Below, piece by piece: positions 41,771 through 53,020 of a stretch of 64,000 bases of DNA. Numbering within the stretch: position 1 is the first letter of the stretch; each line of letters opens with the position of its first letter. Made by a program: the position numbers and the translations under genes. This stretch comes from an uncultured Candidatus Saccharibacteria bacterium. GTDB taxonomy: Bacteria; Patescibacteriota; Minisyncoccia; Phycocordibacterales; CAIZLB01. The notes beneath the pieces are model-generated. The model was not told where the DNA came from and made no database searches. It was given only the letters and a program-made list of their open reading frames with translations. The stretch spans positions 7,477-71,476 of the forward strand of contig CAZSLF010000004.1 of assembly GCA_964607805.1 (NCBI GenBank), read 5' to 3'.

Positions 41771-43135
41771 ATGGCCGCCGTACCAAAAATTGTATATAGA
41801 GAAAAAGCCATCCTACTTTTCGGGGATATTTTTGTATTATTGGCATCCCTTTGGTTGACGATTGCAGTTCGAAGGTTGACTATCCCATCGACAGCGGACT
41901 TTTTGGATTTTACAAGTTCATTTTCAGTCATATTTATAGTTTGGATTATTGTTTTCTTTATCTCAGGCATGTATGAGGCGCAGACTTTGCTTACAAAAAG
42001 TAGAGTGCCGCGTATTGTAATTAGTACCCAAACAATAAACGTAATTGCAGCCGTCGTATTCTTTTATTTATTTTCTGAATTTCAAAAGTTCGGCATAACT
42101 CCTAAGACTAACCTTTTAATATATTGTGTAATTTCAACTTCTCTAATTGTTGCTTGGCGATTGTTTCTATATGACAAGATTTCTGGCAGTAAAAGGACTA
42201 GTGCGATTTTAATTAGTTCTGGCGATGAGATGAGAGAGTTAAAAGATGAGGTAAATGGAAATAATCGTTATCCATTTCATTTTAATACCGTAATTGATTT
42301 GGATAGCGAAGCGGACTGCCTAAAGCTTCGAGAAATCACTAAGAGTGGGGCGGACGAGTATGGGGTGATTGTGCTCGATGTAAGTCACCAGAGTGCTAGC
42401 CCAATACTTTCTGATTTTTATAGCCTCATGTTTTTGGGAGAAGGAAAGACATGTATAGAATTTGTGAAATTGTACGAAGAAATATTTAGAAGGATTCCGC
42501 TCTCGTCACTTAATCATCAGTGGCTACTTCAAAATATGACAATCACTCGTAAAACTATTTACGATATTATTAAAAGAATAATGGACTTGGTTTTGTCAGG
42601 TGTGCTGTCAATTCCATTTTTCATAATTTACCCTTTTGTAGCACTGGCAATTAAATTAGAAGACAAAGGCGAAGTTTTGATCGCACAAGATAGAGTAGGG
42701 GAACATGGACAATTAATTCGACTTCTAAAATTTAGATCTATGACGGGGAACGAAGATGGAAAATGGGTTTCAGAAGGCACAGTTCGAGTTACAAAAGTCG
42801 GAATGTTTTTGCGAAAAAGTCGAATCGACGAATTGCCGCAATTAATTGCTGTTTTTAAAGGTGATATTTCTTTGATTGGACCAAGACCGGATATAAAGGG
42901 ACTTAGCGATAGATTAAGAGAAGAAATTCCATATTATGAAGTGCGAACAATTGTTAAACCAGGACTTTCCGGTTGGGCACAAATTACACAAGAGGGCAGA
43001 CCACCTCAAACAGTGGACGAAACAAAACTCCGTCTATCATATGACTTCTATTATATAAAGCATAGATCGGCATGGCTTGATTTAGCGATTGCACTAAAGA
43101 CTATTAAGACTTTGATTATGAGGGTAGGGGTTTAA
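41771..43135 (+). CDS. Polyprenyl-phosphate sugar phosphotransferase (WbaP/bacterial sugar transferase family)
   Basis: 454 aa. The N-terminus is multi-TM. The C-terminal domain has KFRSM and DELPQLIAVFKGDISLIGPRP motifs. Confidence 0.88.
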   Translation: MAAVPKIVYREKAILLFGDIFVLLASLWLTIAVRRLTIPSTADFLDFTSSFSVIFIVWIIVFFISGMYEAQTLLTKSRVPRIVISTQTINVIAAVVFFYLFSEFQKFGITPKTNLLIYCVISTSLIVAWRLFLYDKISGSKRTSAILISSGDEMRELKDEVNGNNRYPFHFNTVIDLDSEADCLKLREITKSGADEYGVIVLDVSHQSASPILSDFYSLMFLGEGKTCIEFVKLYEEIFRRIPLSSLNHQWLLQNMTITRKTIYDIIKRIMDLVLSGVLSIPFFIIYPFVALAIKLEDKGEVLIAQDRVGEHGQLIRLLKFRSMTGNEDGKWVSEGTVRVTKVGMFLRKSRIDELPQLIAVFKGDISLIGPRPDIKGLSDRLREEIPYYEVRTIVKPGLSGWAQITQEGRPPQTVDETKLRLSYDFYYIKHRSAWLDLAIALKTIKTLIMRVGV

Positions 43136-43154
43136 AGCTTAACTTGATTCAAAA

Positions 43155-43212
43155 GCAAAAATCGGAAAAAGAAAAAGCCCCGCGCATGGTGGTGGGGCTT
43201 TCGGTTGGAGGG
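43155..43212. repeat. 58-nt repeat copy 1 (bidirectional terminator-containing 3' flank)
   Basis: gcaaaaatcggaaaaagaaaaagccccgcgcatggtggtggggctttcggttggaggg. It matches 43736-43793 at 57 of 58 positions. Confidence 0.9.
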
Positions 43213-43241
43213 TAATCTGAGATATATTACTTCAGGCTCGA

Positions 43242-43601
43242 TTAATCATCCTTTAATCGAAGCATCTCCTTTTTCTCGAGGGCGTAATCGAGTTCTTTGA
43301 ATTTAGGTTGCCAACTTCTTCGAATAGTACCCAAGGCGGCCGTCGAAATCATTAATACGGAAAGGAGCGAAGTAAGTGTATATTTTGATAATGGATTGCT
43401 GAAAGTAAGATAGGATAATCCAATCACAATAAAAAGATAAAGTATTGGAAGTGAATAAACTCTGATGTAGAACTGATAGATATTTTTTGATTTCAGGACA
43501 TAATTTTCATACACTGGAATCAAGCGATACAATATGATCGCTATGATCAGTGGAGGAATTGTCGACAAAAGGACTTCCATAGAAGTAAGAGGTAATTTCA
43601 T
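43242..43601 (-). CDS. Small membrane protein (tandem pair member 1)
   Basis: 119 aa with 3 predicted TM segments and a charged C-terminal tail. Confidence 0.6.
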   Translation of the reverse strand: MKLPLTSMEVLLSTIPPLIIAIILYRLIPVYENYVLKSKNIYQFYIRVYSLPILYLFIVIGLSYLTFSNPLSKYTLTSLLSVLMISTAALGTIRRSWQPKFKELDYALEKKEMLRLKDD

Positions 43602-43735
43602 TGGATTTTCGGAGTGTGGGTTGGAACTGACAGAGAGCTGGGACTGATAATATGTTTATAATATCGTACACATATTGTCAAACTAATATGTAAATTAATA
43701 CTTTGTTAATGTTAATGATTGAGGGGGTATGTCCG

Positions 43736-43793
43736 GCAAAAATCGGAAAAAGAAAAAGCCCTGCGCATGGTGGTGGGGCTTTCGGTTGGAGGG
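43736..43793. repeat. 58-nt repeat copy 2
   Basis: Matches 43155-43212 except for one C/T difference. It lies just 3' of the minus-strand gene 43815-44186. Confidence 0.9.
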
Positions 43794-43814
43794 GACAGTG
43801 CTAGAATTGTTCCC

Positions 43815-44186
43815 TCAGATATAAGGATTCATGTGCCAATTTTTCCTTTGTAGATAAATTCTCAGTGCCATGATCTCTACTTTTCGCAGGCGTGTATACA
43901 CCCAAACGAAATAGGTCGCTATCCAGAGTGGGACAATAATCGTGAATATTGCCGTTCTCACAGGAACTGGAAGTAAGTGCAAATAGTAAAATGGAATTGC
44001 GCCCACAATACACATTACAATCAAAGGGAAAGTGTACAGTTTGAAATAAAATCCTCCTATCGTATTTGAACGCTCGAGGATTTTGACATGGAGTTTAAGG
44101 AAGAAGTCGGCTGTATACAAGCTTAGCAATCCAGCTACAGCACTACCGAGCAATGATAATAGAAATGATTGGAGCAATTGTTGCAT
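43815..44186 (-). CDS. Small membrane protein (tandem pair member 2)
   Basis: 123 aa with the same TM and charged-tail architecture as 43242-43601, but little sequence identity. Confidence 0.6.
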   Translation of the reverse strand: MQQLLQSFLLSLLGSAVAGLLSLYTADFFLKLHVKILERSNTIGGFYFKLYTFPLIVMCIVGAIPFYYLHLLPVPVRTAIFTIIVPLWIATYFVWVYTRLRKVEIMALRIYLQRKNWHMNPYI

Positions 44187-44449
44187 CTGAGTATTTGGTT
44201 AAGCGAGGGAATCATTCCAACGCATCTTGGATTGTACATATGCAAAATTAGACTCGAATGAGTATTAATTAATATACAATTTAAGATGTGTTGGAATCCT
44301 TACTACATGTTGGTATAGAGCAAAATCTGGTTATATTTGTATAACATTATATTAGATATGTCAAGTTTCCGTTCTGCATTTACAATTGTTTACAATACCC
44401 GGAAAAAACCTCTACCTCATTTTCATAAATTAAGATATAATCTTGCAAT

Positions 44450-45577
44450 ATGGAATCAATCAAAGAATCACCTATGGAATCACCAAAACACACACTTTTT
44501 ATCACAGGAGCAGCCGGATATGTAGGCACCATGCTTGTTCATCAGTTCTCAAAACGGGCCGATGTGGATCATATGATTTGTATTGATAAAGAGCCTTTGC
44601 CAGAGATGATTAAGGAATTGGTAGACGCTTCCAAATATACTTGGATAAATGCAAATATGAGTGACGATGGTTGGCAGGAAAAAGTTGCTGCAAAAAATCC
44701 TGATATTGTAATTCACACTGCATGGCAAATTCGTGAGATGTATGGAGATCAAAAAACTCAGTGGAAATGGAATGTAACAGGCACAGACATGGTTTTTGAT
44801 TTTGCATTTAATACTCCTTCGGTTAAGCGATTGATTCATTTTTCAACTGTAGCTTCGTATGCTGCATATGCAGACAATACTATTGATCACTTCTTTACTG
44901 AAGCAGAACCTTTTAGGGAGAGTGATTATTTATATGCAATTGAAAAAGATGCATCGGAAAAACATCTTGAAGAAAAATATCAGTTGGCGATTGAAGCTAA
45001 AAGAAAAGCTGGTGTGTCAGATCCTGAAAAAGCAATTCCACAAGTTGCGATTATTCGTCCTGCCGCAATTACAGGGCCTCGTGGACGATATACAAGAATT
45101 CGATTTGGTTTGCAGTCAGCGCTTTCTGGGCAGCTTAATAAATCAAATCTATCGCATAGAATAGTTTCAAAATTAGTTTCTTGGGTGCCGATTACTCCAA
45201 AGTGGTGTCGCCAGTTTATTCACGAGGACGATATTACAAATATCACTGAGATTTTGGCTTTTGATAATTACGAGGATAGATACGAAGCGTACAATGCTTG
45301 TCCTCCAGGTGAAGTAGTTCTTGGAAAGGATATGGCATCAGCTGTAGGGAAGAAAGCTTTGCCTGTTCACCCATGGTTAATTCGAATTGTATTTTTCTTT
45401 GCATGGCACTTGTCGCAAGGCGCAATTCCAACTTCAAGAGGTGGATGGAAAAGTTATTCATATCCAATTGTTGTAGATGGTTCAAAATTCTCTCGCAAGT
45501 TTAATTATAAATATTTCATGGCTCCAAAAGAAGCATTTGTAAAAAAAGAGGGAAGGTATATGGAGTTTGTTAAGTAG
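44450..45577 (+). CDS. NAD-dependent epimerase/dehydratase family protein
   Basis: Rossmann motif ITGAAGYVGTML and SDR-like length. The start may be the ATG at 44471. Confidence 0.8.
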   Translation: MESIKESPMESPKHTLFITGAAGYVGTMLVHQFSKRADVDHMICIDKEPLPEMIKELVDASKYTWINANMSDDGWQEKVAAKNPDIVIHTAWQIREMYGDQKTQWKWNVTGTDMVFDFAFNTPSVKRLIHFSTVASYAAYADNTIDHFFTEAEPFRESDYLYAIEKDASEKHLEEKYQLAIEAKRKAGVSDPEKAIPQVAIIRPAAITGPRGRYTRIRFGLQSALSGQLNKSNLSHRIVSKLVSWVPITPKWCRQFIHEDDITNITEILAFDNYEDRYEAYNACPPGEVVLGKDMASAVGKKALPVHPWLIRIVFFFAWHLSQGAIPTSRGGWKSYSYPIVVDGSKFSRKFNYKYFMAPKEAFVKKEGRYMEFVK

Positions 45578-45719
45578 TTTAGAAGTAGTTTGAGGAGTGG
45601 TTTGTGAAGCGCAGGATTTTGTATATACTATTTGAGTCTAGGTCTTTCTTTAATTTAGTCAACTTCACCCGATCTGTCAGACCCGCCAACTCGAAACCAC
45701 TGAACCAAACTGTAATCCT

Positions 45720-45932
45720 ATGAAGACTGAACATATTGTATTTTTCGCACTGACTATTGTCGGTTTGCATATTGGATATGTGTGGAGGAATGGTTTTGAT
45801 CGATACAGACGTTCCTATCTCGATACTGATCCAAGAGTAAAGCGCAACGGTCAGATTCTACAATTCCTTGGGATCTTCTGTATCTATGAATCCTGCCTCG
45901 CAGCAGTCTATCTCGGGGCGAATTTATTCTAA
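45720..45932 (+). CDS. Small two-TM hypothetical protein
   Basis: 70-aa ORF ending in ttctaacc, followed by the hairpin aaaacccc..gggggtttt at about 45955-45990. Confidence 0.45.
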   Translation: MKTEHIVFFALTIVGLHIGYVWRNGFDRYRRSYLDTDPRVKRNGQILQFLGIFCIYESCLAAVYLGANLF

Positions 45933-46087
45933 CCCTCCTGTCCATGCGACAAATTTAAAACCCCTTGACCAATTGGTCGGGGGTTTTGTGTTTGGGATTT
46001 GTAGAGGGTAATGAATATTAGGGAATTATCCAATATATTTCAGCATAGCTTTATTTTTTAAGGAAAATATGTACAATTGCTGGTAAT

Positions 46088-46159
46088 GGCCCTATCGTCT
46101 AACGGTTAGGACGAAGCGTTCTCAATGCTTAAATCAGAGTTCGATTCTCTGTAGGGTCA
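46088..46159 (+). tRNA. tRNA-Glu (anticodon CTC), CCA not encoded
   Basis: Hand-folded cloverleaf. Acceptor GGCCCTA/TAGGGTC, D-arm GTC-TAACGGTTAG-GAC, anticodon arm AAGCG-TTCTCAA-TGCTT, T-arm CAGAG-TTCGATT-CTCTG, discriminator A. Confidence 0.9.
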
Positions 46160-46188
46160 CAGCGGGAGCAAACGGAGTGCAGCGACAA

Positions 46189-46237
46189 GCTGTGACCCTA
46201 AGCAAGCAAACTGCTTTGCTTGCGTCAGAGAATCGAA
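46189..46237 (+). other. Antisense copy of the tRNA-Glu 3' end, split by a 25-nt insert containing a 9-bp hairpin
   Basis: gctgtgacccta (46189-46200) and cagagaatcgaa (46226-46237) together are the exact reverse complement of 46140-46163. The insert at 46201-46225 contains the 9-bp hairpin gcaagcaaa-ctgc-tttgcttgc. Confidence 0.85.
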
Positions 46238-46307
46238 AAGCTTTTCTATGTTTTGAGAATCTTTGATTCGATAAAACAAGAAAAGGTGTACAGCCCCTGT
46301 AAGGGGA

Positions 46308-46327
46308 GATTCTCTGTAGGGTCACCA
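46308..46327 (+). repeat. Second sense copy of the tRNA-Glu 3' end, carrying CCA
   Basis: gattctctgtagggtcac (46308-46325) is identical to 46143-46160. Here it continues as ..TCACCA. Confidence 0.9.
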
Positions 46328-46353
46328 TTTAGGACCAGCACGATAATAATCAC

Positions 46354-47166
46354 ATGCCGAACATAAAATATAAAACAGCTCTAGAAAGATTAATTAATAA
46401 TTTTAAGAATGACTTTTTGGGTTTTTCAAGAGAACAGTATACTTCTGATGGTAAACTTATACATCCAGGTGAATTTGGAGCATCAAGAGAGATTATTTCT
46501 AAAAAATTTATTGAAGACGTAGTTCCTATTTCCAAAAAAATTATAACTAAGGGATTTATTTTAAACTCAAATAACGAAACAACCACTGAGCAAGATTTAA
46601 TTATTTACAGTACTAATGATACACCTGTTCTTACTTTAGAAAATACAAGCTTTCTTCCGGTCGAAACAGTAGTTTCAGTGGGACAGGTAAAGTCAGTGAT
46701 ACAGTCAAAAAAAGATCTTAAAAAAATATTAGATAATTTAGTTAAAGTAAAAATGGTTAGAGATAATATGGGACACAGCTCAGTAATTTGGAGGAATCAT
46801 GAGCTATTTAACGGTAGCTATGGGTACTATAAAGATAATGCTTTTGATCAGGTTTTTACATTCGTTATTTGTGAAAAACTTAATTTTACTATTACACCAG
46901 ATGAAATAGATAAGTTGTATGATAGCGGCACTAAGGAATATTTAAAACATAATTTAATTTTAGACATAAGTAACGGTTTGTACGGTTATCAAATTAAAGA
47001 AGGGGATCCTTTTTTAGCGATACCATATACTATACACGGAAATAGTACACCAATACTCGTTGGTACCGAGAACGAATGGCACTTTAAACAATTTTTGACC
47101 AATATACACATTCATACTTCATCGAATACAGTTTTTCATCCAAATATGGGTAAATACATAAATTAG
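46354..47166 (+). CDS. DUF6602-like protein with restriction-endonuclease (PD-(D/E)xK)-type motif pattern
   Basis: 270 aa, AT-rich. GEFGASREIISKKFIEDVVP ... TEQDLIIYS ... LPVETVVSVGQVKS follows the G-x-x-RE / Q-D-hhh-Y / E-x-hhh-(E/Q)-V-K pattern that I recall for DUF6602. Confidence 0.6.
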   Translation: MPNIKYKTALERLINNFKNDFLGFSREQYTSDGKLIHPGEFGASREIISKKFIEDVVPISKKIITKGFILNSNNETTTEQDLIIYSTNDTPVLTLENTSFLPVETVVSVGQVKSVIQSKKDLKKILDNLVKVKMVRDNMGHSSVIWRNHELFNGSYGYYKDNAFDQVFTFVICEKLNFTITPDEIDKLYDSGTKEYLKHNLILDISNGLYGYQIKEGDPFLAIPYTIHGNSTPILVGTENEWHFKQFLTNIHIHTSSNTVFHPNMGKYIN

Positions 47167-47356
47167 ATAGTCGCACAAGAATGGTTGTTGTGATAAGGAA
47201 AAAATATTAGAAATGATCTAACAGGATAAGGTACCAATAAGTTCTATCTCGAGAAGGCTCACTAGAGAGTAAAATTCAAACTGCTTTGAATTATCCGTGA
47301 CCACAATTTAAACCCCTGTATTCATTAATTTATACAAAAAGTGCTAAAATGAATTT

Positions 47357-47938
47357 ATGGAAATTAAATTTCTCCTAGGAATTATCTCTACAGCAATTGC
47401 AGTCATTTGTTTCATTCCATACATAAAAGATATTCTTCGAAGGAAGACTGAGCCCCACACCTATTCTTGGCTCATATGGACAATACTTCAAACAGTAGGA
47501 GTAATGGCCCAGTTGAAAGAAGGGGCAGGTTACGGTGCATGGGCTTTAGGTGTGGGTGCATTATTCTGCTTCACTATATTCTTATTCTCCTTTAAATACG
47601 GAACAAAAAATATTTCAAAGTTTGATTTACTTTGCTTGATTGCCTCACTGTGCGCAATTGCAATTTATCTTTTTATAGAAAATCCTGTTTATGCAATTGT
47701 CGCAGTAGCACTTATCGATTTTGTTGGTTTCTTACCAACATTTAGAAAAGGATTTGAGGAACCGTTTACAGAAACAGTGAGCACATTCATTTTGAGTGCT
47801 ATGGCAAATGTTTTAAGTATTCTAGCACTTCAAAACTATACGGTTACAACTGTACTTTATATAGCAACCCTTTTCTTTACTAACTCTTCTTTTGCAACCA
47901 TGATCTTGGTTCGTAGAAAGTTTTTGCGAAAGAAGTAA
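47357..47938 (+). CDS. PQ-loop-like 6-TM membrane protein (paralog 1 of 3)
   Basis: 193 aa. The N-terminal FIPYIKDILRRKTEPHTYSW resembles a PQ-loop motif. Paralogs lie at 53080 and 53824. Confidence 0.6.
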   Translation: MEIKFLLGIISTAIAVICFIPYIKDILRRKTEPHTYSWLIWTILQTVGVMAQLKEGAGYGAWALGVGALFCFTIFLFSFKYGTKNISKFDLLCLIASLCAIAIYLFIENPVYAIVAVALIDFVGFLPTFRKGFEEPFTETVSTFILSAMANVLSILALQNYTVTTVLYIATLFFTNSSFATMILVRRKFLRKK

Positions 47939-48064
47939 TTTAGAGATTATTAAAAAAACCCAACCCCTTGACTTTTACAACCAAGTGTTGTATCTTATTT
48001 CCGCTGATCAGGAATGCACTAGGCCCAGTAAGCCTTAGCAACACCCCTGGCAGCAAACGCAGAC

Positions 48065-48742
48065 ATGTCCATTAACATACTACTCGACGAACAAAAGCTC
48101 CGGGAAGCCCCGGGGTTCAGTGATACTACTCGAACAGACGGTGGCGGCGGGATGATACTTGATAATACTCGTATTCCTGTCTCAGTCGACAACCTTGGCC
48201 GAATTTATATTACACTCAGCGATCACGCGAGCTTGGCCCCTTCGATCGAACCTTTTGTTACTGAGGTTTCCTTTTTTGTGTATGTTTCCGCTCAGCGGAC
48301 GCATCGTGAACTGGGTATCTATCGCCATGCAAGTGCAGAAGGCGAGGTTGATCTCCAAGAGGGAAGAGACAGTACTCAGTACTGGATCAAAGTAAGTGCC
48401 AAGAAGCTTGAGGATGCTCGTGAGCTGGTCAGACTATTTAAGATCGGCTCGATTCGTCCCGCCGACAGCTTCGAAGGGAGGCAGCAAGGCGAATCGAAAG
48501 AAGAGCTTGAAGCAAGACTTCGAACTGTTCTGGAAGAACTTGAGAGTTTGAAAGGGGAAAACGCTCTAAATGAGACTAACCTCGAGCATACAAGAGGCAT
48601 GCTGGATATAAGCCTTGACCGTGTTCGTGAGGTTTTCAAATTATCGGCAGCGCTCAGCAATCGACGTCTCAAGTGGCCCTGGTGTTCCAAACAAAAAGTT
48701 GCGTTGCTAATCAACTGTGCACTTAACAGAGAAGGTAAGTAG
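48065..48742 (+). CDS. Hypothetical protein with C-terminal coiled-coil
   Basis: 225-aa G+C-richer ORF with a TTGACT-type promoter about 90 nt upstream. The terminator cgacccaagcc..ggcttgggtttttttt lies at about 48783-48812. Confidence 0.6.
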   Translation: MSINILLDEQKLREAPGFSDTTRTDGGGGMILDNTRIPVSVDNLGRIYITLSDHASLAPSIEPFVTEVSFFVYVSAQRTHRELGIYRHASAEGEVDLQEGRDSTQYWIKVSAKKLEDARELVRLFKIGSIRPADSFEGRQQGESKEELEARLRTVLEELESLKGENALNETNLEHTRGMLDISLDRVREVFKLSAALSNRRLKWPWCSKQKVALLINCALNREGK

Positions 48743-48889
48743 CTAGTCTACAGTTTAGTTCCAAGAGTTTATTCTTTAAACTCCGACCCAAGCCATCCGG
48801 CTTGGGTTTTTTTTATTTAAGCCAAATTTTTGGTGAATGGTTGTTTGCACCCATTTGCCCACACATCTTTTATATAAGATAATACCCAC

Positions 48890-49705
48890 ATGAACAAATC
48901 TTTTCTTAAAACTCTCGCAATCTCACTTTTGCTATTGAGCATTTTTATCGGAAACACAGCGGACGCTTGCAGAGTTAAATCGTATCCATGGTTCATAACT
49001 AATACAACTATTGATACGAGTACATTACCTCCTGGTATAACTTTTGTAAGTCACACTCTAAATCATGAATATGGACCAGATGGAAAATTTACAAGCACTA
49101 CAACTACACCATTTTATCTTCTACGACCAGAATCTGATAGAAAAAATGAAGCAGCAATTATTGACGGAGGTTACACTGAATTACCAGCACATGAAATACC
49201 ATTGTATAAATTAGTGGGAGGTGATCAATATTATTGGGATGGAGAAGATGGATGGAGTACGTATTACTGGTATGGAACAACTTCAAAGAAAGAGATGGAT
49301 CTTGTACTTAGAAATTCTGATGTAGGAATTAAGAATAAATTTGGAGGAAAACGACCAAAAAATGTAGAAGTTCCCGAACCTCATGATATTTCTTTTAAAG
49401 CGTACTATGGCTCCGAACCAATTTATATTAAGGGTAGGATGGAATATGCTTTAAACGAGGGTTTTTACCCAACAAATCCAAATGGTTGTAATAATATTTA
49501 CGGATCTTTGACTGGTTTGATAGTTGGATTAGGAGTTCAATTGTTGATAATCGGAGCAATCATATTTAGTCCAATTTTATTGTATAAGTTCTTAAGAAAA
49601 AGAATTTCAAGTGCGGTTACATCAAAAATAATAGTTGCAATTTATTTATTGTTAGTAATAGTTATCGTCTACGGTTTATTGCATTTATTCGGGTTTGTAT
49701 ATTAG
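48890..49705 (+). CDS. Secreted/membrane-anchored hypothetical protein
   Basis: Signal-peptide-like N-terminus (LLLLSIFIGNTADAC) and two C-terminal TM helices. Confidence 0.6.
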   Translation: MNKSFLKTLAISLLLLSIFIGNTADACRVKSYPWFITNTTIDTSTLPPGITFVSHTLNHEYGPDGKFTSTTTTPFYLLRPESDRKNEAAIIDGGYTELPAHEIPLYKLVGGDQYYWDGEDGWSTYYWYGTTSKKEMDLVLRNSDVGIKNKFGGKRPKNVEVPEPHDISFKAYYGSEPIYIKGRMEYALNEGFYPTNPNGCNNIYGSLTGLIVGLGVQLLIIGAIIFSPILLYKFLRKRISSAVTSKIIVAIYLLLVIVIVYGLLHLFGFVY

Positions 49706-49840
49706 ATGAAACTCTTATCACTAAAATTGCAAAAATGAGAGTAAAAGAATTGAAGGAGATGGATGCAAAGTGGATGTAATGAAAAACCCGCCAGAACCTA
49801 AGTTCTGGCGGCGTTCGTTTTCGGCTAGTGTTAACTAGCG

Positions 49841-50338
49841 TCAGGGGTCAGGAAGATCATAGTCACCCCTGTTGCGGCACATCCGCTCTGCCTCTCTCTC
49901 AGCCCTTTCACTTGAATAAAATGCATATGATGAAAGAGGTTGGTTTGAGTCTGGATGCAAAATACTCGCATCCTTAATATCATGGCGTCTCGCAGCTTCA
50001 TGCTCTATAGCTTCCTCTTCATCTTGGAGACTTTTTATTAGCTTTTCTTTCTTTCGCCCCAAGGTAGCGGCCCTCTTCACACCTATTAAAACTTGTTTGA
50101 AGTACTCTTGAGCGAGGGCGACTTGGTAGGGTTCTAGGGCGGCCTTTCCCTCATTTCTCCTATTTTCCTTTATTATCTCTGCCAGGCATGCGGCTTTTTT
50201 TGCTTTGAGAACCGCCCCTCTGTTCTTAAAGCGTTTTTCCACGACACGTAAATCACGCTGTGCTTTATCGATCATATCTATTGTGATGTAGATCTTAAAA
50301 TCGATTTCAGGCCCATCTTCACCTTTCTTCATTTTCAT
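49841..50338 (-). CDS. Hypothetical highly charged helical protein
   Basis: I used the ATG at 50338 (MKMKKGEDG...). The terminator aaaaacccgccagaac..gttctggcgg lies at about 49783-49812. Confidence 0.5.
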   Translation of the reverse strand: MKMKKGEDGPEIDFKIYITIDMIDKAQRDLRVVEKRFKNRGAVLKAKKAACLAEIIKENRRNEGKAALEPYQVALAQEYFKQVLIGVKRAATLGRKKEKLIKSLQDEEEAIEHEAARRHDIKDASILHPDSNQPLSSYAFYSSERAEREAERMCRNRGDYDLPDP

Positions 50339-50522
50339 AACAAATCGAGGTTGAAACAAACTAGTAGGGAGCTGTCACCATGCAAAAAGCACGATGTTTC
50401 CGAAATATAGAGTACAACACGTAGATGCTAGTCGTCAAATTTAACAAAAAAAAGAGACGAAATAAAAAGCCCTGCTGTTCACGCTTTTTAGGCGTTACTT
50501 AGCAGGGCTTCGAGATTAGGTC

Positions 50523-51083
50523 TTAGAGGAGACCCCATCGTTGGTGTCGGCTTTCGGCAAAGCGGATTTCAGCTTTATCTCGGTGGATAAAAATCTCCAC
50601 CGTGAGACCGTCGTCTGTCTTGCACAGCTCCACCCATGTCCCTTCTCGAGTTTCTTCGGGAAGAATAAGATATCCGACAGGTACTCCGGGAAAAAAAGTT
50701 TCTCCCTCGGGGTTTTTTCCAGGCTGATACAAGGTTTTGGTAAGAAGGTAACGGCCTGGACCGATTCCTGGCAGCCATCGAGAGATAGTGATATCTCCCC
50801 CGAAGCCCCCGGCAGAACCGGAGAATTTTAAAATAAATTTCTCCGGTTCTCCGCTGCTTACCGTTCGGCTGGCATAATTCTGTGTCGAAGTATCACCGGC
50901 ACTGCCAGCAATACTAGCCGATTGATGACCAAGGGAGTAGAACCCTACTTCATTTTTCCAGTTGCACTTGGACAGATTGTTGTTCGTGATCATTGGATGG
51001 TAATATTTTAGGTTGATTTGTTTGGAAAGATTCTCTTTCAGACAGTGCCTTTCGGCTATGCTGTTTTTAGGTCTACTTTCCAT
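50523..51083 (-). CDS. Hypothetical protein
   Basis: 186-aa ORF. The ATG at 51083 is the first one downstream of a consensus promoter. The terminator agccctgct..agcagggct lies at about 50469-50508. Confidence 0.55.
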   Translation of the reverse strand: MESRPKNSIAERHCLKENLSKQINLKYYHPMITNNNLSKCNWKNEVGFYSLGHQSASIAGSAGDTSTQNYASRTVSSGEPEKFILKFSGSAGGFGGDITISRWLPGIGPGRYLLTKTLYQPGKNPEGETFFPGVPVGYLILPEETREGTWVELCKTDDGLTVEIFIHRDKAEIRFAESRHQRWGLL

Positions 51084-51175
51084 TTCAGACCCAGCTTTAT
51101 GAATACAAATTAGTTATATTTATACGTATAAAGCTAGGCCTAAACAACCCCTATATTCAATGTACTTATGGATAT

Positions 51176-51203
51176 ATTATATCATAGTATAACTATTTGT
51201 CAA
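51176..51203 (-). promoter_or_regulatory. Consensus sigma70-type promoter
   Basis: On the minus strand: TTGACA (complement of 51198-51203), a 16-nt spacer, then TATAAT (complement of 51176-51181). Confidence 0.6.
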
Positions 51204-51268
51204 GTTTGAAAAGTAACATAAAAATCGTTCAGTCATGTCAAAATGAGGGCTAATATTTTATAAAAAAC

Positions 51269-51721
51269 CTAAAACAGCGAATCAACAACCTCCTTCACAT
51301 CCATACCATCCGCTTTACCTTTCAAATCTTTCATAAGAGCACCAGTCAAAATACCAGCCTTAGCCTTATCAGTTACACCAAGCTCGGCTTTCTTAGCTTC
51401 AGCAAGTGCCCGAATTTCATCACGAGACATCATTTGAGGTAAATATGTTTCAAGAACAGTTAGTTCAGCTTGCTCAGATTCAGCAAGATCTGATCGTCCA
51501 GCTGTTGTAAATTGAGCAATAGAATCCTTTCGTTGTTTAACACCACGGCGTATTAGAGTGAGCACCTCTTCGTCTTCTAGCTCAGACTGAGGAGTGCGGC
51601 TAGTGGCAACCAATTCGTTCGTCATAGCACTCATAAGACCACGGATAACAGATAATTTAACAGCATCCTTAGCCATCATTGCTTCTTTTAATTGAGATTT
51701 AAGATCGTTTTGTAGTGACAT
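51269..51721 (-). CDS. yqeY: GatB/YqeY domain protein
   Basis: I used the ATG at 51721. LKEAMMAKDAVKLSVIRGLMSAMTNE is typical of YqeY. Confidence 0.85.
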   Translation of the reverse strand: MSLQNDLKSQLKEAMMAKDAVKLSVIRGLMSAMTNELVATSRTPQSELEDEEVLTLIRRGVKQRKDSIAQFTTAGRSDLAESEQAELTVLETYLPQMMSRDEIRALAEAKKAELGVTDKAKAGILTGALMKDLKGKADGMDVKEVVDSLF

Positions 51722-51853
51722 GGTAGTTAAAGTTGGTATTTTTGGGCTTTTAGATTTGCCGCTTATTAATTTTGATAATGGGATTGTAGCATAAAATTGG
51801 CATAAATCTCCATAAATTCTCAAAATTTCAGTACCCTGATATACTCAATACAT

Positions 51854-53020
51854 ATGGACCAAAACCTACTCATCATATTAATTGTTATCCTGGCACTTAT
51901 CGTCATCGGACTGGCTATAGCCATTTTCATAATTTTTAAAAAGTTTAATAGTCAAAATGGCGATGCAACCGGAAACGCTAATTCTGCCTCTCAAGAACTA
52001 CAATCTTCGATTGGTCTTGTCATGCAGCATATTTCGGAGCTTGGGCGAACTTTCGATAATAAAATATCTGGCATGGAGCGGGCAGTGGGGGATAAATTGT
52101 CATATTCTGCGAAGGAGATGAACGAGAATATGCGTCATCAAACTTCTGAATCTTTCAAAGTACTTCGGGATGTGACTGAGAGACTGACAAAGCTCGATGA
52201 GACGAATAAGCAAGTGATTTCATTTACAGATCAATTGCAAAGTCTTCAGGATATTTTGAAGAATCCGAAGCAGAGAGGGATTTTAGGTGAATATTATTTG
52301 GAAACTCTTTTGAAAAATGTATTACCGCCAGGATCCTTCGAGATGCAACATAAATTAGGGCAAGATGAGAACGGTGCTGATTTAATTCCCGATGCTGTAG
52401 TTTTTGTGCGAGATAAAATTGTGCCAATCGATTCTAAATTCTCACTTGAAAACTATAATCGTATTATTGGCGAGCGTGATCCCGTCGAAAAAGAAAAATT
52501 GGAAAAACTTTTTGTTAGTAATTTGAAAGATAGAATTACTGAAACATCTAAATATATTAAACCATCACTCGGAACTGTTGATTTCGCTTTTATGTTTATT
52601 CCGCATGAAGCAATTTATTATGATCTATTGATAAATAAGATTGGAGTGCTTAAAGAAGATAGTGAAAGCCTGATCCAGCGTGCCGCTTCTAAGTATCATG
52701 TGATTATTGTCTCGCCAACTTCTTTCTTGGCATATTTGCAAACTGTTCTGCAAGGTTTGAAGGCGCTTCAGATTGAGGAACAGGCTAAGGATATTGTGAA
52801 GAGAGTAGGGGAACTGACGCTCCATCTAAAGAAGTATGCTGAGCACCAGGATAAATTAGGACGATCAATTAGCACCGTTGTAAATCAGTACAATGATTCA
52901 AGCCGCGAATTCAAAAAAATCGATAAAGATATTATGCGTTTGACGGAGAAGGAACAATCGCTTGAATATGAGATGCAATTGATTGATAAGACAGGAGATG
53001 ATGCCGAGGGTATGAAATAA
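51854..53020 (+). CDS. rmuC: DNA recombination protein RmuC
   Basis: N-terminal TM, a long coiled-coil and an RmuC motif NPKQRGILGEYYLETLL. Confidence 0.88.
   Translation: MDQNLLIILIVILALIVIGLAIAIFIIFKKFNSQNGDATGNANSASQELQSSIGLVMQHISELGRTFDNKISGMERAVGDKLSYSAKEMNENMRHQTSESFKVLRDVTERLTKLDETNKQVISFTDQLQSLQDILKNPKQRGILGEYYLETLLKNVLPPGSFEMQHKLGQDENGADLIPDAVVFVRDKIVPIDSKFSLENYNRIIGERDPVEKEKLEKLFVSNLKDRITETSKYIKPSLGTVDFAFMFIPHEAIYYDLLINKIGVLKEDSESLIQRAASKYHVIIVSPTSFLAYLQTVLQGLKALQIEEQAKDIVKRVGELTLHLKKYAEHQDKLGRSISTVVNQYNDSSREFKKIDKDIMRLTEKEQSLEYEMQLIDKTGDDAEGMK

What the first reader, a model, noticed from the sequence alone, without database searches (positions are those of the whole stretch)
46202..47320. 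DUF6602-like nuclease-fold gene bracketed by two hairpins with an identical 12-nt core
The 270-aa AT-rich ORF (46354-47166) shows the G-x-x-RE ... Q-D-L-I-I-Y ... E-T-V-V-S-V-G-Q-V-K pattern of a PD-(D/E)xK-type DUF6602 domain. Members of this fold act as effectors in many anti-phage systems.

The gene is flanked by gcaagCAAACTGCTTTGcttgc (46202-46223) on the left and aattCAAACTGCTTTGaatt (47273-47292) on the right. Both are perfect hairpins sharing caaactgctttg. Each is followed by cccctgta (46294-46301 and 47313-47320).

A 12-nt exact match at both borders of a single gene beside a tRNA is unlikely by chance in 64 kb. It is reminiscent of the subterminal hairpins of IS200/IS605-type or PATE-like elements, although no transposase is present. 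Taken together, this is a candidate mobile single-gene defence cassette.
Basis: partly seen in the sequence, partly recalled or inferred. Interest (0 to 1): 0.6.

Follow-up and report, generated by a model that had tools for sequence, protein, structure and literature searches.

The report
Nuclease cassette and inserts behind tRNA-Glu
A stand-alone NucC-like nuclease gene sits as a swappable single-gene cassette behind a tRNA-Glu gene of a Patescibacteria genome, and the two "bracketing" hairpins are modules of a widespread, apparently undescribed family of small folded elements that insert into tRNA genes.

Summary
The ORF 46354-47166 is a DUF6602 protein.

- **Left hairpin.** It lies inside a cargo-less 147-nt insert in the tRNA T-loop. 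The insert ends in GAAAAGGTGTACAG-NNNC-TGTAA-GNNN, so the left "cccctgta" is half of a hairpin. This core occurs in more than 120 Patescibacteria loci and in no viral contig. It has no Rfam match and shows strong covariation. It often follows a tRNA whose 3' end it duplicates.
- **Gene.** Its whole predicted fold matches NucC. In five genomes its close homologues follow a tRNA-Glu amid unrelated neighbours.
- **True cassette borders.** These are the tRNA 3'-end copy (46308-46328) and a decayed copy of it (47241-47262) inside a junction conserved across genomes. They are not the hairpins.
- **Right hairpin.** It lies outside that border. It is a variant of the same hairpin module without the rest of an element.

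No recombinase was found, so the mobilising mechanism is inferred. A defence role is plausible because a DUF6602 integron cassette, "Damona", is a validated anti-phage gene.

The parts
46088..46160 (+). tRNA-Glu (anticodon CTC), intact. Its last 18 nt are direct-repeat copy 1 (46143-46160). It is followed by AGC, not CCA.
   Evidence: ARAGORN; Rfam tRNA, 58.6 bits; sequence.
46161..46307 (+). Cargo-less 147-nt structured insert (the 'B element') in the tRNA T-loop. The unit is 165 bp if one repeat copy is counted.
   Evidence: It lies between two exact 18-nt repeats. A covariance model built only from copies in other genomes finds 46192-46307 at E 4.9e-8. As RNA it closes on itself, z = -5.7.
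46189..46200 (+). T'a (gctgtgacccta), the exact complement of the tRNA acceptor 3' strand plus its new trailer (tagggtcacagc).
   Evidence: Sequence; 12-nt exact complement against a control mean of 5.3; paired in the folds.
46202..46223 (+). This is the conserved 'hp' module CAAGCAAACTGCTTTGCTTG.
   Evidence: Identical or near-identical hairpins occur in 11 further loci that lie in element context, and most of them sit between complements of the preceding tRNA 3' end.
46226..46237 (+). T'b (cagagaatcgaa), the complement of the tRNA T-loop and T-stem 3' strand (ttcgattctctg).
46241..46306 (+). B core. It comprises a closing stem CTTTTCT/AGAAAAG around an AT-rich hairpin, the near-invariant AAAAGGTGTACAG (46281-46293), and the terminal hairpin ccccTGTAAgggg (46294-46306).
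   Evidence: More than 120 loci carry the core. The terminal stem has 25 variants and is 97% Watson-Crick paired. Compensatory changes were counted. One strand folds better in 89% of copies.
46308..46328 (+). Direct-repeat copy 2 of the tRNA-Glu 3' end, here followed by CCA. It is the ancestral tRNA end and the left border of the nuclease cassette.
   Evidence: The same ...GTAGGGTCACCATT leader precedes the gene in L002 and L003 and follows the tRNA in L007.
46354..47166 (+). DUF6602 / NucC-like PD-(D/E)xK nuclease gene, 270 aa, about 30% GC.
   Evidence: Pfam; PADLOC PD_DExK 1e-22 and NucC 6e-15; invariant E40, R45, E46, D81, E104 and K113, with Q111 conserved in 18 of 19; AlphaFold2 pLDDT 83; Foldseek match to NucC at TM 0.65-0.74, E 1e-12; GC profile.
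47167..47262 (+). Conserved cassette junction. It starts with TCGCACAAGAATGG (47171-47184). It ends with GTTCTATCTCGAGAAGGCTCAC (47241-47262), a decayed copy of the tRNA-Glu 3' end that forms the right border of the cassette.
   Evidence: It aligns with the sequence after the gene in L002 and L007 and with two other cassette junctions in L007. It also aligns with tRNA-Glu 3' ends.
47273..47292 (+). It lies outside the cassette border and lacks target-complementary flanks.
   Evidence: The surrounding region has no significant fold, z = 0.24. The covariance model does not detect it.
47297..47304 (+). GTGACCAC. It matches the 3' terminus of a second element type (C-type: CGAGCCGGGGTCGC...GTGACCAC) that follows hp in L023 and L209. 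It may be the end of an internally deleted copy. This is weak evidence from an 8-nt match.
   Evidence: L023, L209, also L020 and L135; inference.
47313..47320 (+). The right-hand CCCCTGTA. Nothing here shows it to be more than a chance 8-mer; no GGTGTACAG precedes it and no pairing partner follows it.
47357..47938 (+). Next gene, a 193-aa membrane protein with no family match. Its relatives very often start 3-40 nt after tRNA genes of many kinds, so it is probably a further tRNA-tail cassette.

Best explanation
**What is there.** The tail of the tRNA-Glu gene is an insertion hotspot, and at least two independent small elements have piled up there.

1. **A 147-nt non-coding structured element.**
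   - It entered the T-loop and brought its own copy of the tRNA 3' end. That copy keeps the tRNA intact and pushed the original 3' end, with its CCA, 165 bp downstream.
   - It also carries the complement of that 3' end, split by the conserved hairpin CAAGCAAACTGCTTTGCTTG. Its conserved core ends in GGTGTACAG plus a small TGTAA-loop hairpin.
2. **A cassette of about 940 bp with a single gene.**
   - It sits directly behind the displaced tRNA end. Its borders are that tRNA end and a decayed copy of it, inside a junction of about 100 nt that is conserved between genomes.
   - The gene encodes a stand-alone NucC-like PD-(D/E)xK DNA endonuclease.

**What is shown.** The anatomy is shown. So are the family-wide conservation and covariation of the small element, the linkage of the gene to tRNA-Glu in several genomes, and a different gene in the equivalent slot in one other genome.

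**What is inferred.**
- Both elements are moved by site-specific recombination at the tRNA loop, catalysed in trans by an enzyme encoded elsewhere.
- One strand of the small element folds so that its tRNA-end copy and the complement form a duplex replica of the target. This would resemble the folded attachment sites of integron cassettes or of the CTX phage.
- The nuclease serves as a single-gene anti-phage effector.
For: **Anatomy**
- The 18-nt repeat is exact.
- Copy 2 keeps the CCA and the leader seen in L002, L003 and L007, whereas copy 1 is followed by new sequence.
- The 12 + 12 nt complements flank the hairpin.
- The RNA fold closes on itself, z = -5.7.

**The small-element family**
- More than 120 Patescibacteria loci carry the core, with several copies per genome. 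No viral contig carries it, and it has no Rfam match.
- About 30% of extracted copies have a tRNA within 260 nt. Most of these tRNAs lie upstream on the same strand, and many tRNA types are represented.
- In about 35 of 117 copies, a direct repeat of at least 10 nt of the upstream gene end follows the element. The repeats are 10-33 nt, reaching from the T-loop or anticodon loop to the tRNA end.
- Stems co-vary: 97% pairing over 25 stem variants, and 22-34 of 60 sequences are changed on both sides at six of seven co-varying pairs.
- One strand folds better in 89% of copies, p about 1e-12.
- An independent covariance model finds the window copy at E 5e-8.
- The element can carry cargo: in L123, a tRNA-Gln is followed by two ORFs, then the core, then the repeat.

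**The cassette**
- Homologues at 58-80% identity follow a tRNA-Glu in L002, L003, L004 and L007, amid unrelated neighbours.
- The junction is conserved across genomes and across three cassettes in L007.
- L025 has tRNA-Glu, the same element subfamily, a different 188-aa ORF, and then a homologue of the window's next gene.
- The gene is about 30% GC against 37-40% in the flanks.

**The protein**
- A DUF6602 integron cassette, 'Damona', is among the anti-phage systems described from Vibrio (bioRxiv 10.1101/2024.07.02.601686).
Against: - **No recombinase, integrase or transposase was found.**
  - None lies next to the roughly 130 element copies.
  - None was recognised in the 64-kb window. Thirty-five ORFs were scanned with Pfam, the other ORF translations were only read by eye, and a tyrosine-recombinase motif search found nothing.
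  - No excised or empty form was observed.
- **The comparison genome is distant.** L025 is only 36% identical in the flanking gene, so no strict empty-site comparison exists.
- **Remote homologues sit elsewhere.** Those at 44-54% identity lie behind protein genes without a tRNA or a clear repeat.
- **RNA and single-stranded DNA are not distinguished.** Tandem G-A motifs and G-U pairs would also fit an RNA-level function.
- **The nuclease may need an activator.** NucC needs a cyclic trinucleotide; no activator is known for this protein, and no cyclase was found in the eleven neighbouring ORFs scanned (41771-53020).
- **Activity and defence are untested here.**
Confidence: 0.6

Rival explanations
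1. The small element works as RNA rather than as mobile DNA.
- It would be a structured, tRNA-linked non-coding RNA. Its 5' complement and 3' tRNA-end copy pair into an acceptor/T-arm-like minihelix ending in CCA.
- It could serve as a processing signal ('tRNA punctuation') that releases the downstream cassette mRNA, or as an RNA guide for tRNA genes.
- On this view the repeats are kept by selection and are not left over from insertion.
For: - Folding is strand-specific, with 65 G-U pairs on one strand against 26 on the other.
- UGAG...CGAA motifs, which could form tandem G-A pairs, recur inside the variable hairpins.
- The element lies on the same strand as the upstream tRNA in most tRNA-linked copies.
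- The window copy folds into a closed three-way structure whose 3' end is ...GGGUCACCA.
- Cassette ORFs begin only 3-40 nt after tRNA ends.
Against: - There is no transcript evidence and no promoter or terminator call for it.
- Tandem copies (L004), multiple copies per genome, and different tRNA targets each with a matching complement all look like insertion events.
- L002 and L003 express the same gene layout without the element.
Confidence: 0.25
2. One reading: a single mobile unit of the IS200/IS605 or PATE type, whose two subterminal hairpins bracket the nuclease gene as cargo.
For: Two perfect hairpins with the same 12-nt core flank the ORF. No other copy exists in the window.
Against: - The left hairpin sits inside a unit bounded by its own 18-bp direct repeat, upstream of the tRNA-end copy that precedes the gene in all relatives.
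- Homologous cassettes in L002, L003 and L007 have neither hairpin.
- In other genomes the hairpin occurs with no DUF6602 gene nearby; tblastn found none in 120 element loci.
- IS200/IS605 elements make no target duplication, and no TnpA or TnpB was found.
Confidence: 0.04
3. The nuclease is a homing-type endonuclease that cuts tRNA-Glu tails lacking it and so spreads its own gene. It would not be a defence gene.
For: All five close homologues (58-100% identity) lie behind a tRNA-Glu, of either anticodon but with the same 3' end. PD-(D/E)xK homing endonucleases are known, which is general knowledge.
Against: - Unrelated ORFs use the same junction in L007.
- Unrelated genes, namely the membrane protein family and the L025 and L123 cargo, also sit behind tRNAs.
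- Remote homologues are not at tRNAs.
- The whole fold is that of NucC, an immune effector.
Confidence: 0.08
4. The hairpins are ordinary intrinsic terminators, and the shared 12-mer is coincidence.
For: Both lie in intergenic DNA downstream of genes. A 12-mer repeat alone is not significant.
Against: - Neither hairpin has a T-tract, and the terminator scan finds only the hairpin at 45962-45983.
- The same hairpin sequence is conserved across many genomes in a fixed context.
Confidence: 0.03

Closest known systems
NucC, the cA3-activated DNA endonuclease effector of type III CBASS and some type III CRISPR systems (PDB 6q1h, 6p7p, 7zgv)
   Same: The whole-length fold matches (TM 0.65-0.74, E 1e-12). 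A sequence profile matches over residues 33-136 (E 8e-11). The catalytic D...(E/Q)xK residues align.
   Different: Identity is only 12-17%. The eleven neighbouring ORFs scanned include no cyclase or CRISPR partner. The motif is QxK in 18 of 19 family members. Trimer formation and cA3 binding were not tested.
'Damona', a single-gene DUF6602 anti-phage cassette of the Vibrio cholerae chromosomal integron (bioRxiv 10.1101/2024.07.02.601686)
   Same: It has the same Pfam domain and the same secondary matches to Cas PD_DExK and the CBASS endonuclease. It is also a single-gene cassette in an array of cassettes.
   Different: The host phylum differs, and so does the cassette system: attC and IntI there, tRNA-Glu tail and tRNA-like junction here. 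Sequence similarity to Damona itself was not measured.
tRNA-targeting integrative islands and their integrase-less derivatives (CIME-type elements, tandem accretion at tRNA 3' ends)
   Same: Insertion is in the T-loop or anticodon loop. The element supplies a replacement tRNA 3' end. The direct repeat runs from the crossover to the tRNA end. Insertions are stacked in tandem.
   Different: The elements are only 110-170 nt, or about 1 kb with one gene. No integrase was found anywhere nearby. The core is a conserved, folded, strand-specific structure, and a complement of the target is carried inside the element.
Integron gene cassettes with attC sites, and the folded single-strand attP of the CTX phage
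   Same: The arrays hold promoter-less single-gene cassettes separated by structured recombination-site-like repeats of about 100 nt, and they contain defence genes. Stem sequences vary while pairing is conserved. An inverted pair could fold into a duplex copy of the target.
   Different: There is no IntI, attI or R'/R'' core. The anchor is a tRNA gene. Recombination of a folded strand is only inferred.
REP/REPIN elements mobilised in trans by RAYT transposases
   Same: These are short, multi-copy, hairpin-forming intergenic elements at gene 3' ends with no gene of their own.
   Different: B elements have a core of about 45 nt conserved across the phylum, they duplicate their target, and they carry target-matched segments. 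Whether a RAYT-like gene exists in these genomes was not tested.
Group I introns in Patescibacteria tRNA genes (mSystems 2026, PMC13011429)
   Same: These are insertions in tRNA genes of the same phylum that standard tools overlook.
   Different: According to the paper's abstract, those introns lie at position 35/36 in the anticodon loop and self-splice. Here, removing the element does not rebuild a tRNA (1 of about 130 copies). An intact tRNA is present, and no Rfam family other than tRNA, tmRNA and chance-level hits matches.

Membership tests
Pfam DUF6602 (PF20247) | Profile match above the gathering score | tested here: met
   E 3.9e-18, 65.7 bits against a cut-off of 27, residues 34-133. 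All 19 homologues carry PF20247.
PD-(D/E)xK nuclease superfamily | Restriction-endonuclease-like core fold with conserved acidic residues and lysine | tested here: met
   D81, E104 and K113 are invariant. Q111 is conserved in 18 of 19 and is E in the remaining one. Q111-V-K113 aligns with E-V-K of NucC. After NucC, the next fold matches are BbvCI and NgoMIV.
NucC (CBASS / type III CRISPR effector) | Whole-protein NucC fold | tested here: met
   Foldseek TM 0.65-0.74 over about 267 columns, E 1e-12, using a model with pLDDT 83 and pTM 0.86.
NucC (CBASS / type III CRISPR effector) | Encoded with a CD-NTase or a type III CRISPR locus that makes its cA3 activator | tested here: not met
   None of the five flanking ORFs scanned matches a PADLOC model. 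No cyclase or Cas domain appears in the ten ORFs of 41771-53020 scanned with Pfam. No such genes are called near the homologues.
NucC (CBASS / type III CRISPR effector) | Homotrimer with a cA3-binding pocket | not testable with these tools
   Only a monomer was modelled.
IS200/IS605 or PATE | Subterminal hairpins at both ends of one element, no target duplication, and TnpA/TnpB in autonomous copies | tested here: not met
   The hairpins belong to different units. An 18-bp direct repeat is present. No conserved neighbouring ORF exists.
Integron cassette | attC site with R''/L''-L'/R' cores, and an array next to intI/attI | tested here: not met
   The junctions are copies of the tRNA-Glu 3' end. 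No integrase was found in the window ORFs scanned with Pfam, the remaining translations were only read by eye, and a motif search found nothing.
tRNA-targeting integrative element (tyrosine-integrase type) | Direct repeat made of the tRNA 3' part, from the T-loop or anticodon loop to the end | tested here: met
   The window repeat is 18 nt, starting in the T-loop. Across the family the repeats are 10-33 nt.
tRNA-targeting integrative element (tyrosine-integrase type) | Integrase gene inside the element | tested here: not met
   The elements are 147 nt and about 940 bp with a single nuclease gene. No integrase was seen in the neighbourhoods.
Intrinsic terminator | GC-rich hairpin followed by a T-tract | tested here: not met
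   Only 45962-45983 is called. Neither hairpin is followed by Ts.
Any Rfam 15 family, including group I intron, ribozymes and IS605-associated RNAs | Covariance-model match | tested here: not met
   Only tRNA, tmRNA and chance-level hits, at E up to 1 in the window and E up to 0.5 in seven element loci.
tRNA intron | Removing the insert restores a tRNA that is otherwise interrupted | tested here: not met
   The tRNA-Glu is already intact. Excision in silico restores a tRNA in only 1 of about 130 copies.

The most novel reading that the evidence does not exclude
The GGTGTACAG-core elements and their relatives that share the CAAGCAAACTGCTTTGCTTG hairpin may be a new class of structure-defined, non-autonomous mobile element specific to Patescibacteria. 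Each copy would carry a segment complementary to its own target, which can be any of many tRNAs or a gene 3' end, and would choose that target by base-pairing. The folded single strand, DNA or RNA, would present a replica of the target to a recombinase acting in trans. The elements would ferry single-gene cassettes such as this nuclease, making a tRNA-anchored, integron-like gene-capture system in ultra-small genomes.
Probability: 0.2. Interest if true: 0.85.

Novelty: new variant of a known kind. Interest (0 to 1): 0.62.

Why it matters
Patescibacteria have tiny genomes, and little seems to be known about their mobile elements.

**tRNA tails as gene-capture sites.** This locus suggests that tRNA tails in the group act as places where single genes, including a NucC-like nuclease of a family with a validated anti-phage member, are stacked and exchanged.

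**The small folded element.** A phylum-wide small folded element is involved. It is absent from Rfam and from the viral contigs, and seven full-text searches found no description of it. Each copy carries a tRNA-end copy and its complement, matched to its own insertion site. That arrangement points to target choice by base-pairing, which would be of interest both for mobile-DNA biology and as a programmable insertion principle.

**Practical consequences.**
- The element creates duplicated tRNA ends. These break assemblies: the Logan contig L001 ends inside it.
- The duplicated ends can mislead tRNA and island annotation.

Tried and rejected
- **Chance.** The 12-mer alone is weak evidence. The hairpin context and its recurrence elsewhere rule chance out.
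- **Terminators.** Rejected.
- **Known RNA families.** Rfam gave nothing in the window or in seven loci.
- **tRNA intron, including the Patescibacteria group I introns.** Rejected.
- **Autonomous parent element.**
  - ORFs ending beside about 130 copies are unrelated housekeeping genes.
  - Clustering 1,316 neighbouring ORFs gave no transposase or integrase family, only occasional LAGLIDADG-like and GIY-YIG-like ORFs in four loci each, recognised by eye.
  - Long-range repeats were found in only four loci.
  - Viral contigs gave no hits for either the core or the hairpin.
- **Recombinase in the window.** Pfam on 35 ORFs, reading of all ORF translations, and an HxLRH[ST] motif search found nothing.
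- **Cargo functions.** The ORFs in L007, L025, L003 and L123 have no Pfam match.
- **More copies in the window.** The covariance model and mismatch searches find only the one copy.
- **Duplicated upstream gene ends around remote DUF6602 homologues.** None is convincing.
- **Literature.** Seven full-text searches found no description of these elements.
- **Ideas considered from the sequence and dropped.**
  - Hammerhead-like core: G5 and C3 are missing and there is no Rfam hit.
  - dif/Xer-like site: the arms are not symmetric once the co-varying stem is taken into account.
  - Retroviral-type primer-binding site: the complement covers the genomic trailer, not CCA.
Full report
**1. Checking the observation**

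The sequence is as described. The left hairpin gcaagcaaaCTGCtttgcttgc lies at 46202-46223. The right hairpin aattcaaaCTGCtttgaatt lies at 47273-47292. CCCCTGTA occurs at 46294 and 47313. Each motif occurs only at those two places in the 64 kb.

The ORF 46354-47166 matches Pfam DUF6602 at E 3.9e-18. By itself a 12-nt repeat is not significant. Two perfect hairpins built on it are. ARAGORN finds a single tRNA in the window, tRNA-Glu(CTC) at 46088-46160.

The last 18 nt of the tRNA, GATTCTCTGTAGGGTCAC, recur exactly at 46308-46325, just upstream of the ORF. Copy 2 is followed by CCA and copy 1 by AGC.

**2. The protein**

- PADLOC models PD_DExK (1e-22) and NucC (6e-15) match.
- The only homologues in 5.8 billion clusters are 19 proteins, all DUF6602.
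- Their alignment shows invariant G39-E-F-G42, R45-E46, D81, E104 and K113. Q111 is conserved in 18 of 19 sequences and is E in the remaining one.
- A profile search of solved structures finds only NucC, where Q111-V-K113 aligns with the catalytic E-V-K.
- An AlphaFold2 model (pLDDT 83, pTM 0.86) matches NucC over its full length (TM 0.65-0.74, E 1e-12). The restriction enzymes BbvCI and NgoMIV come next.
- No cyclase, Cas or other defence partner is present among the eleven neighbouring ORFs scanned.

The gene therefore encodes an orphan NucC-like PD-(D/E)xK nuclease. The one paper in the library that mentions DUF6602 describes 'Damona'. This is a DUF6602 cassette among the anti-phage systems of the Vibrio cholerae chromosomal integron, with the same secondary matches.

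**3. The gene as a tRNA-Glu tail cassette**

Contigs carrying homologues were fetched. The relatives at 58-80% identity all lie downstream of a tRNA-Glu, in unrelated neighbourhoods:

| Locus | Arrangement |
|---|---|
| L002 | tRNA-Glu(TTC), gene starts 24 nt later |
| L003 | tRNA-Glu(CTC), gene starts 25 nt later |
| L004 | tRNA-Glu, gene starts 237 nt later |
| L007 | tRNA-Glu nearly identical to the window's, then three single-ORF cassettes; the third is the DUF6602 gene |

The cassettes in L007 are separated by junctions of about 110-130 nt. The same junction follows the gene in the window and in L002. It starts with TCGCAC(A/G)AGAA(G/T)GG right after the stop codon. It ends with GGTTCTATCTCGAGAAGGCTCAC, which aligns with the tRNA-Glu end GGTTCGATTC(T/C)C(T/C)GTAGGGTCAC.

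In the window the cassette thus runs from the displaced tRNA end (46308-46328) to 47262. The ORF is about 30% GC against 37-40% around it.

L025 has tRNA-Glu(CTC), the same small element as the window, an unrelated 188-aa ORF, and then a homologue (36% identity) of the window's next gene. So the slot holds different genes in different genomes.

More remote homologues (44-54% identity) lie behind uvrA or trmD. One lies behind a tRNA-Gln plus a NOV_C gene. None has clear repeats.

**4. The left hairpin belongs to a separate, widespread element**

The 147 nt between the two tRNA-end copies contain the following parts:

- A spacer.
- gctgtgacccta, the complement of the acceptor 3' strand plus the new trailer.
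- The hairpin.
- cagagaatcgaa, the complement of the T-loop and T-stem.
- A long AT-rich hairpin closed by CTTTTCT/AGAAAAG.
- AAAAGGTGTACAG.
- ccccTGTAAgggg.

As RNA the piece closes on itself, with the complements pairing to the downstream tRNA-end copy (z = -5.7).

L004 carries two tandem 161-bp units of the same kind in a tRNA-Phe. All are Patescibacteria, and several genomes have two to four copies. A viral scan returned nothing.

About 30% of copies have a tRNA close by. Most of these tRNAs lie just upstream on the same strand, and they include Glu, Phe, Val, Gln, Gly, Ser, Leu, Ala, Pro, Asp, His, Trp, Ile and Cys. In about 35 of 117 copies the sequence right after the element repeats at least 10 nt of the upstream gene end. 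The repeats run from the T-loop or anticodon loop to the tRNA end and are 10-33 nt long. Some copies follow protein genes such as rplK.

Evidence that the element is a folded single strand:

- The terminal stem has 25 sequence variants and is 97% Watson-Crick paired.
- RNAalifold finds seven pairs with compensatory changes. At six of them, 22-34 of 60 sequences are changed on both sides.
- One strand folds better than the other in 89% of copies, p about 1e-12.

No Rfam family matches. Removing the element does not rebuild a tRNA, so it is not an intron of the kind recently described in this phylum.

A covariance model built without the window finds the window copy at E 4.9e-8 and nothing else in the 64 kb. 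It finds four copies in 585 kb of contigs that were chosen by protein similarity; two of these, in L004, were in the model's training set.

In L123 the element carries cargo. A tRNA-Gln is followed by two ORFs, then the complement/hairpin/core block, then the repeat. The whole insert is 1.1 kb.

**5. The hairpin is a module**

CAAGCAAACTGCTTTGCTTG or near variants occur in 11 other fetched loci in element context. The usual order is as follows:

- The tRNA 3' end.
- A terminator-like palindrome.
- The complement of the acceptor strand.
- The hairpin.
- The complement of the T-arm.
- A core.

The core is either the GGTGTACAG type or a second type, CGAGCCGGGGTCGC ... CTTAGTGATTyGTGACCAC. In 8 of 12 instances an 11-14-nt exact complement of the upstream sequence flanks the hairpin, against a control mean of 5.

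The window's right hairpin differs. It has three compensated stem changes but no complementary flanks, and there is no significant fold around it. It lies 10 nt beyond the cassette border. It is followed after 4 nt by GTGACCAC, the terminus of the second core type. I read it as a variant hp module left from, or belonging to, another small element between the nuclease cassette and the next gene. This is an inference from short matches. The right-hand CCCCTGTA has no support.

**6. The next gene**

A metagenome scan with the 193-aa membrane protein (47357-47938) gave 80 loci. In many of them the gene starts 3-40 nt after a tRNA, among them Ser, Gln, Trp, Glu and Asn. It therefore also behaves as a tRNA-tail cassette. 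Further downstream the base composition is mosaic; for example, 48065-48742 is about 49% GC.

**7. Mechanism**

Shown:

- The tRNA-restoring direct repeats.
- Tandem stacking.
- Target-matched complements inside the element.
- A conserved, strand-specific folded core.
- Variable cargo.

Not found:

- Any recombinase beside the elements.
- Any recombinase in the window.

My best reading has two parts. First, integration is site-specific, occurs at tRNA loops, and is catalysed in trans. Second, the element's own tRNA-end copy and its complement fold into a duplex replica of the target, as in integron attC sites or the CTX phage attachment site.

An RNA-level role remains a serious rival. In that case the element would form a tRNA-like minihelix used for processing, or would act as an RNA guide.

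The nuclease most likely acts as a stand-alone anti-phage DNase. Its trigger is unknown.

**8. Verdict**

The reading as a mobile single-gene nuclease cassette beside a tRNA is supported in substance. The hairpin-bracket, IS200-like model is not supported.

The gene is a new member of a known kind. The small element family and the tRNA-anchored cassette arrangement appear to be undescribed variants of tRNA-targeting integration. There is an open possibility that base-pairing guides the choice of target.

Noticed in passing
L004:4330-4716: A tRNA-Phe is followed by two tandem 161-bp units, each made of a partial tRNA copy plus a B element. The third tRNA 3' copy has a different acceptor strand (tctaggc) that cannot pair with the 5' end of the gene.
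   Followed up: partly
L033, L044, L062, L063, L093 (within about 110 nt upstream of the GGTGTACAG motif): In five genomes a complete tRNA-Ile(GAT) gene lies on the opposite strand just upstream of the GGTGTACAG motif. In L033, read by eye, it lies inside the variable hairpin loop of the B element.
   Followed up: no
L171:3300-3550: A decayed tRNA-Glu copy, split by a B element after the anticodon loop, lies just upstream of an intact tRNA-Glu(TTC). A relative of the window's membrane protein starts 3 nt after that tRNA.
   Followed up: partly
L135:2690-2900; L023, L020, L209, L004:5790-5900: A second conserved small element type (CGAGCCGGGGTCGC ... CTTAGTGATTyGTGACCAC) follows the same hairpin module. 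In L004 a copy lies between the tRNA-Glu and the DUF6602 gene.
   Followed up: partly
window 47357-47938, and 80 loci L135-L214: Relatives of this 193-aa membrane protein, which has no Pfam match, very often begin 3-40 nt after tRNA genes of many different kinds, as if leaderless behind the tRNA.
   Followed up: partly
L007:318-3140: A three-cassette array lies behind a tRNA-Glu. The ORFs are 239 aa, 174 aa and the DUF6602 gene, separated by junctions of about 110-130 nt that each hold up to three CTCGAGAAGG(G/C)T motifs. The two other ORFs have no Pfam match.
   Followed up: partly
L011:6575-8822: A tRNA-Gln is followed by a NOV_C-domain gene and then a DUF6602 homologue. This may be another tRNA-tail pair of nuclease-like genes.
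   Followed up: no
window 48065-48742: An ORF with about 49% GC in a region of about 37% GC, with no Pfam or PADLOC match. Together with 49841-51083 (44-50% GC) it gives the stretch downstream of the tRNA a mosaic composition.
   Followed up: no
window 51854-53020: An RmuC-family gene lies 5 kb downstream. The Damona paper calls DUF6602 distantly related to RmuC. It is probably the ordinary housekeeping copy, since homologues occur in L015, L028, L039 and L095.
   Followed up: no
L001 (Logan contig SRR12762304_1246699): A short-read assembly of the same sequence breaks at window position 46199, inside the inverted and direct tRNA-end repeats. These elements can fragment assemblies.
   Followed up: no
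L036, L104, L067, L099; L029, L038, L049, L097: ORFs that look like LAGLIDADG (four loci) and GIY-YIG (four loci) nucleases by eye lie within 4 kb of B elements, the nearest at 174-229 nt. This is too few to call an association.
   Followed up: no
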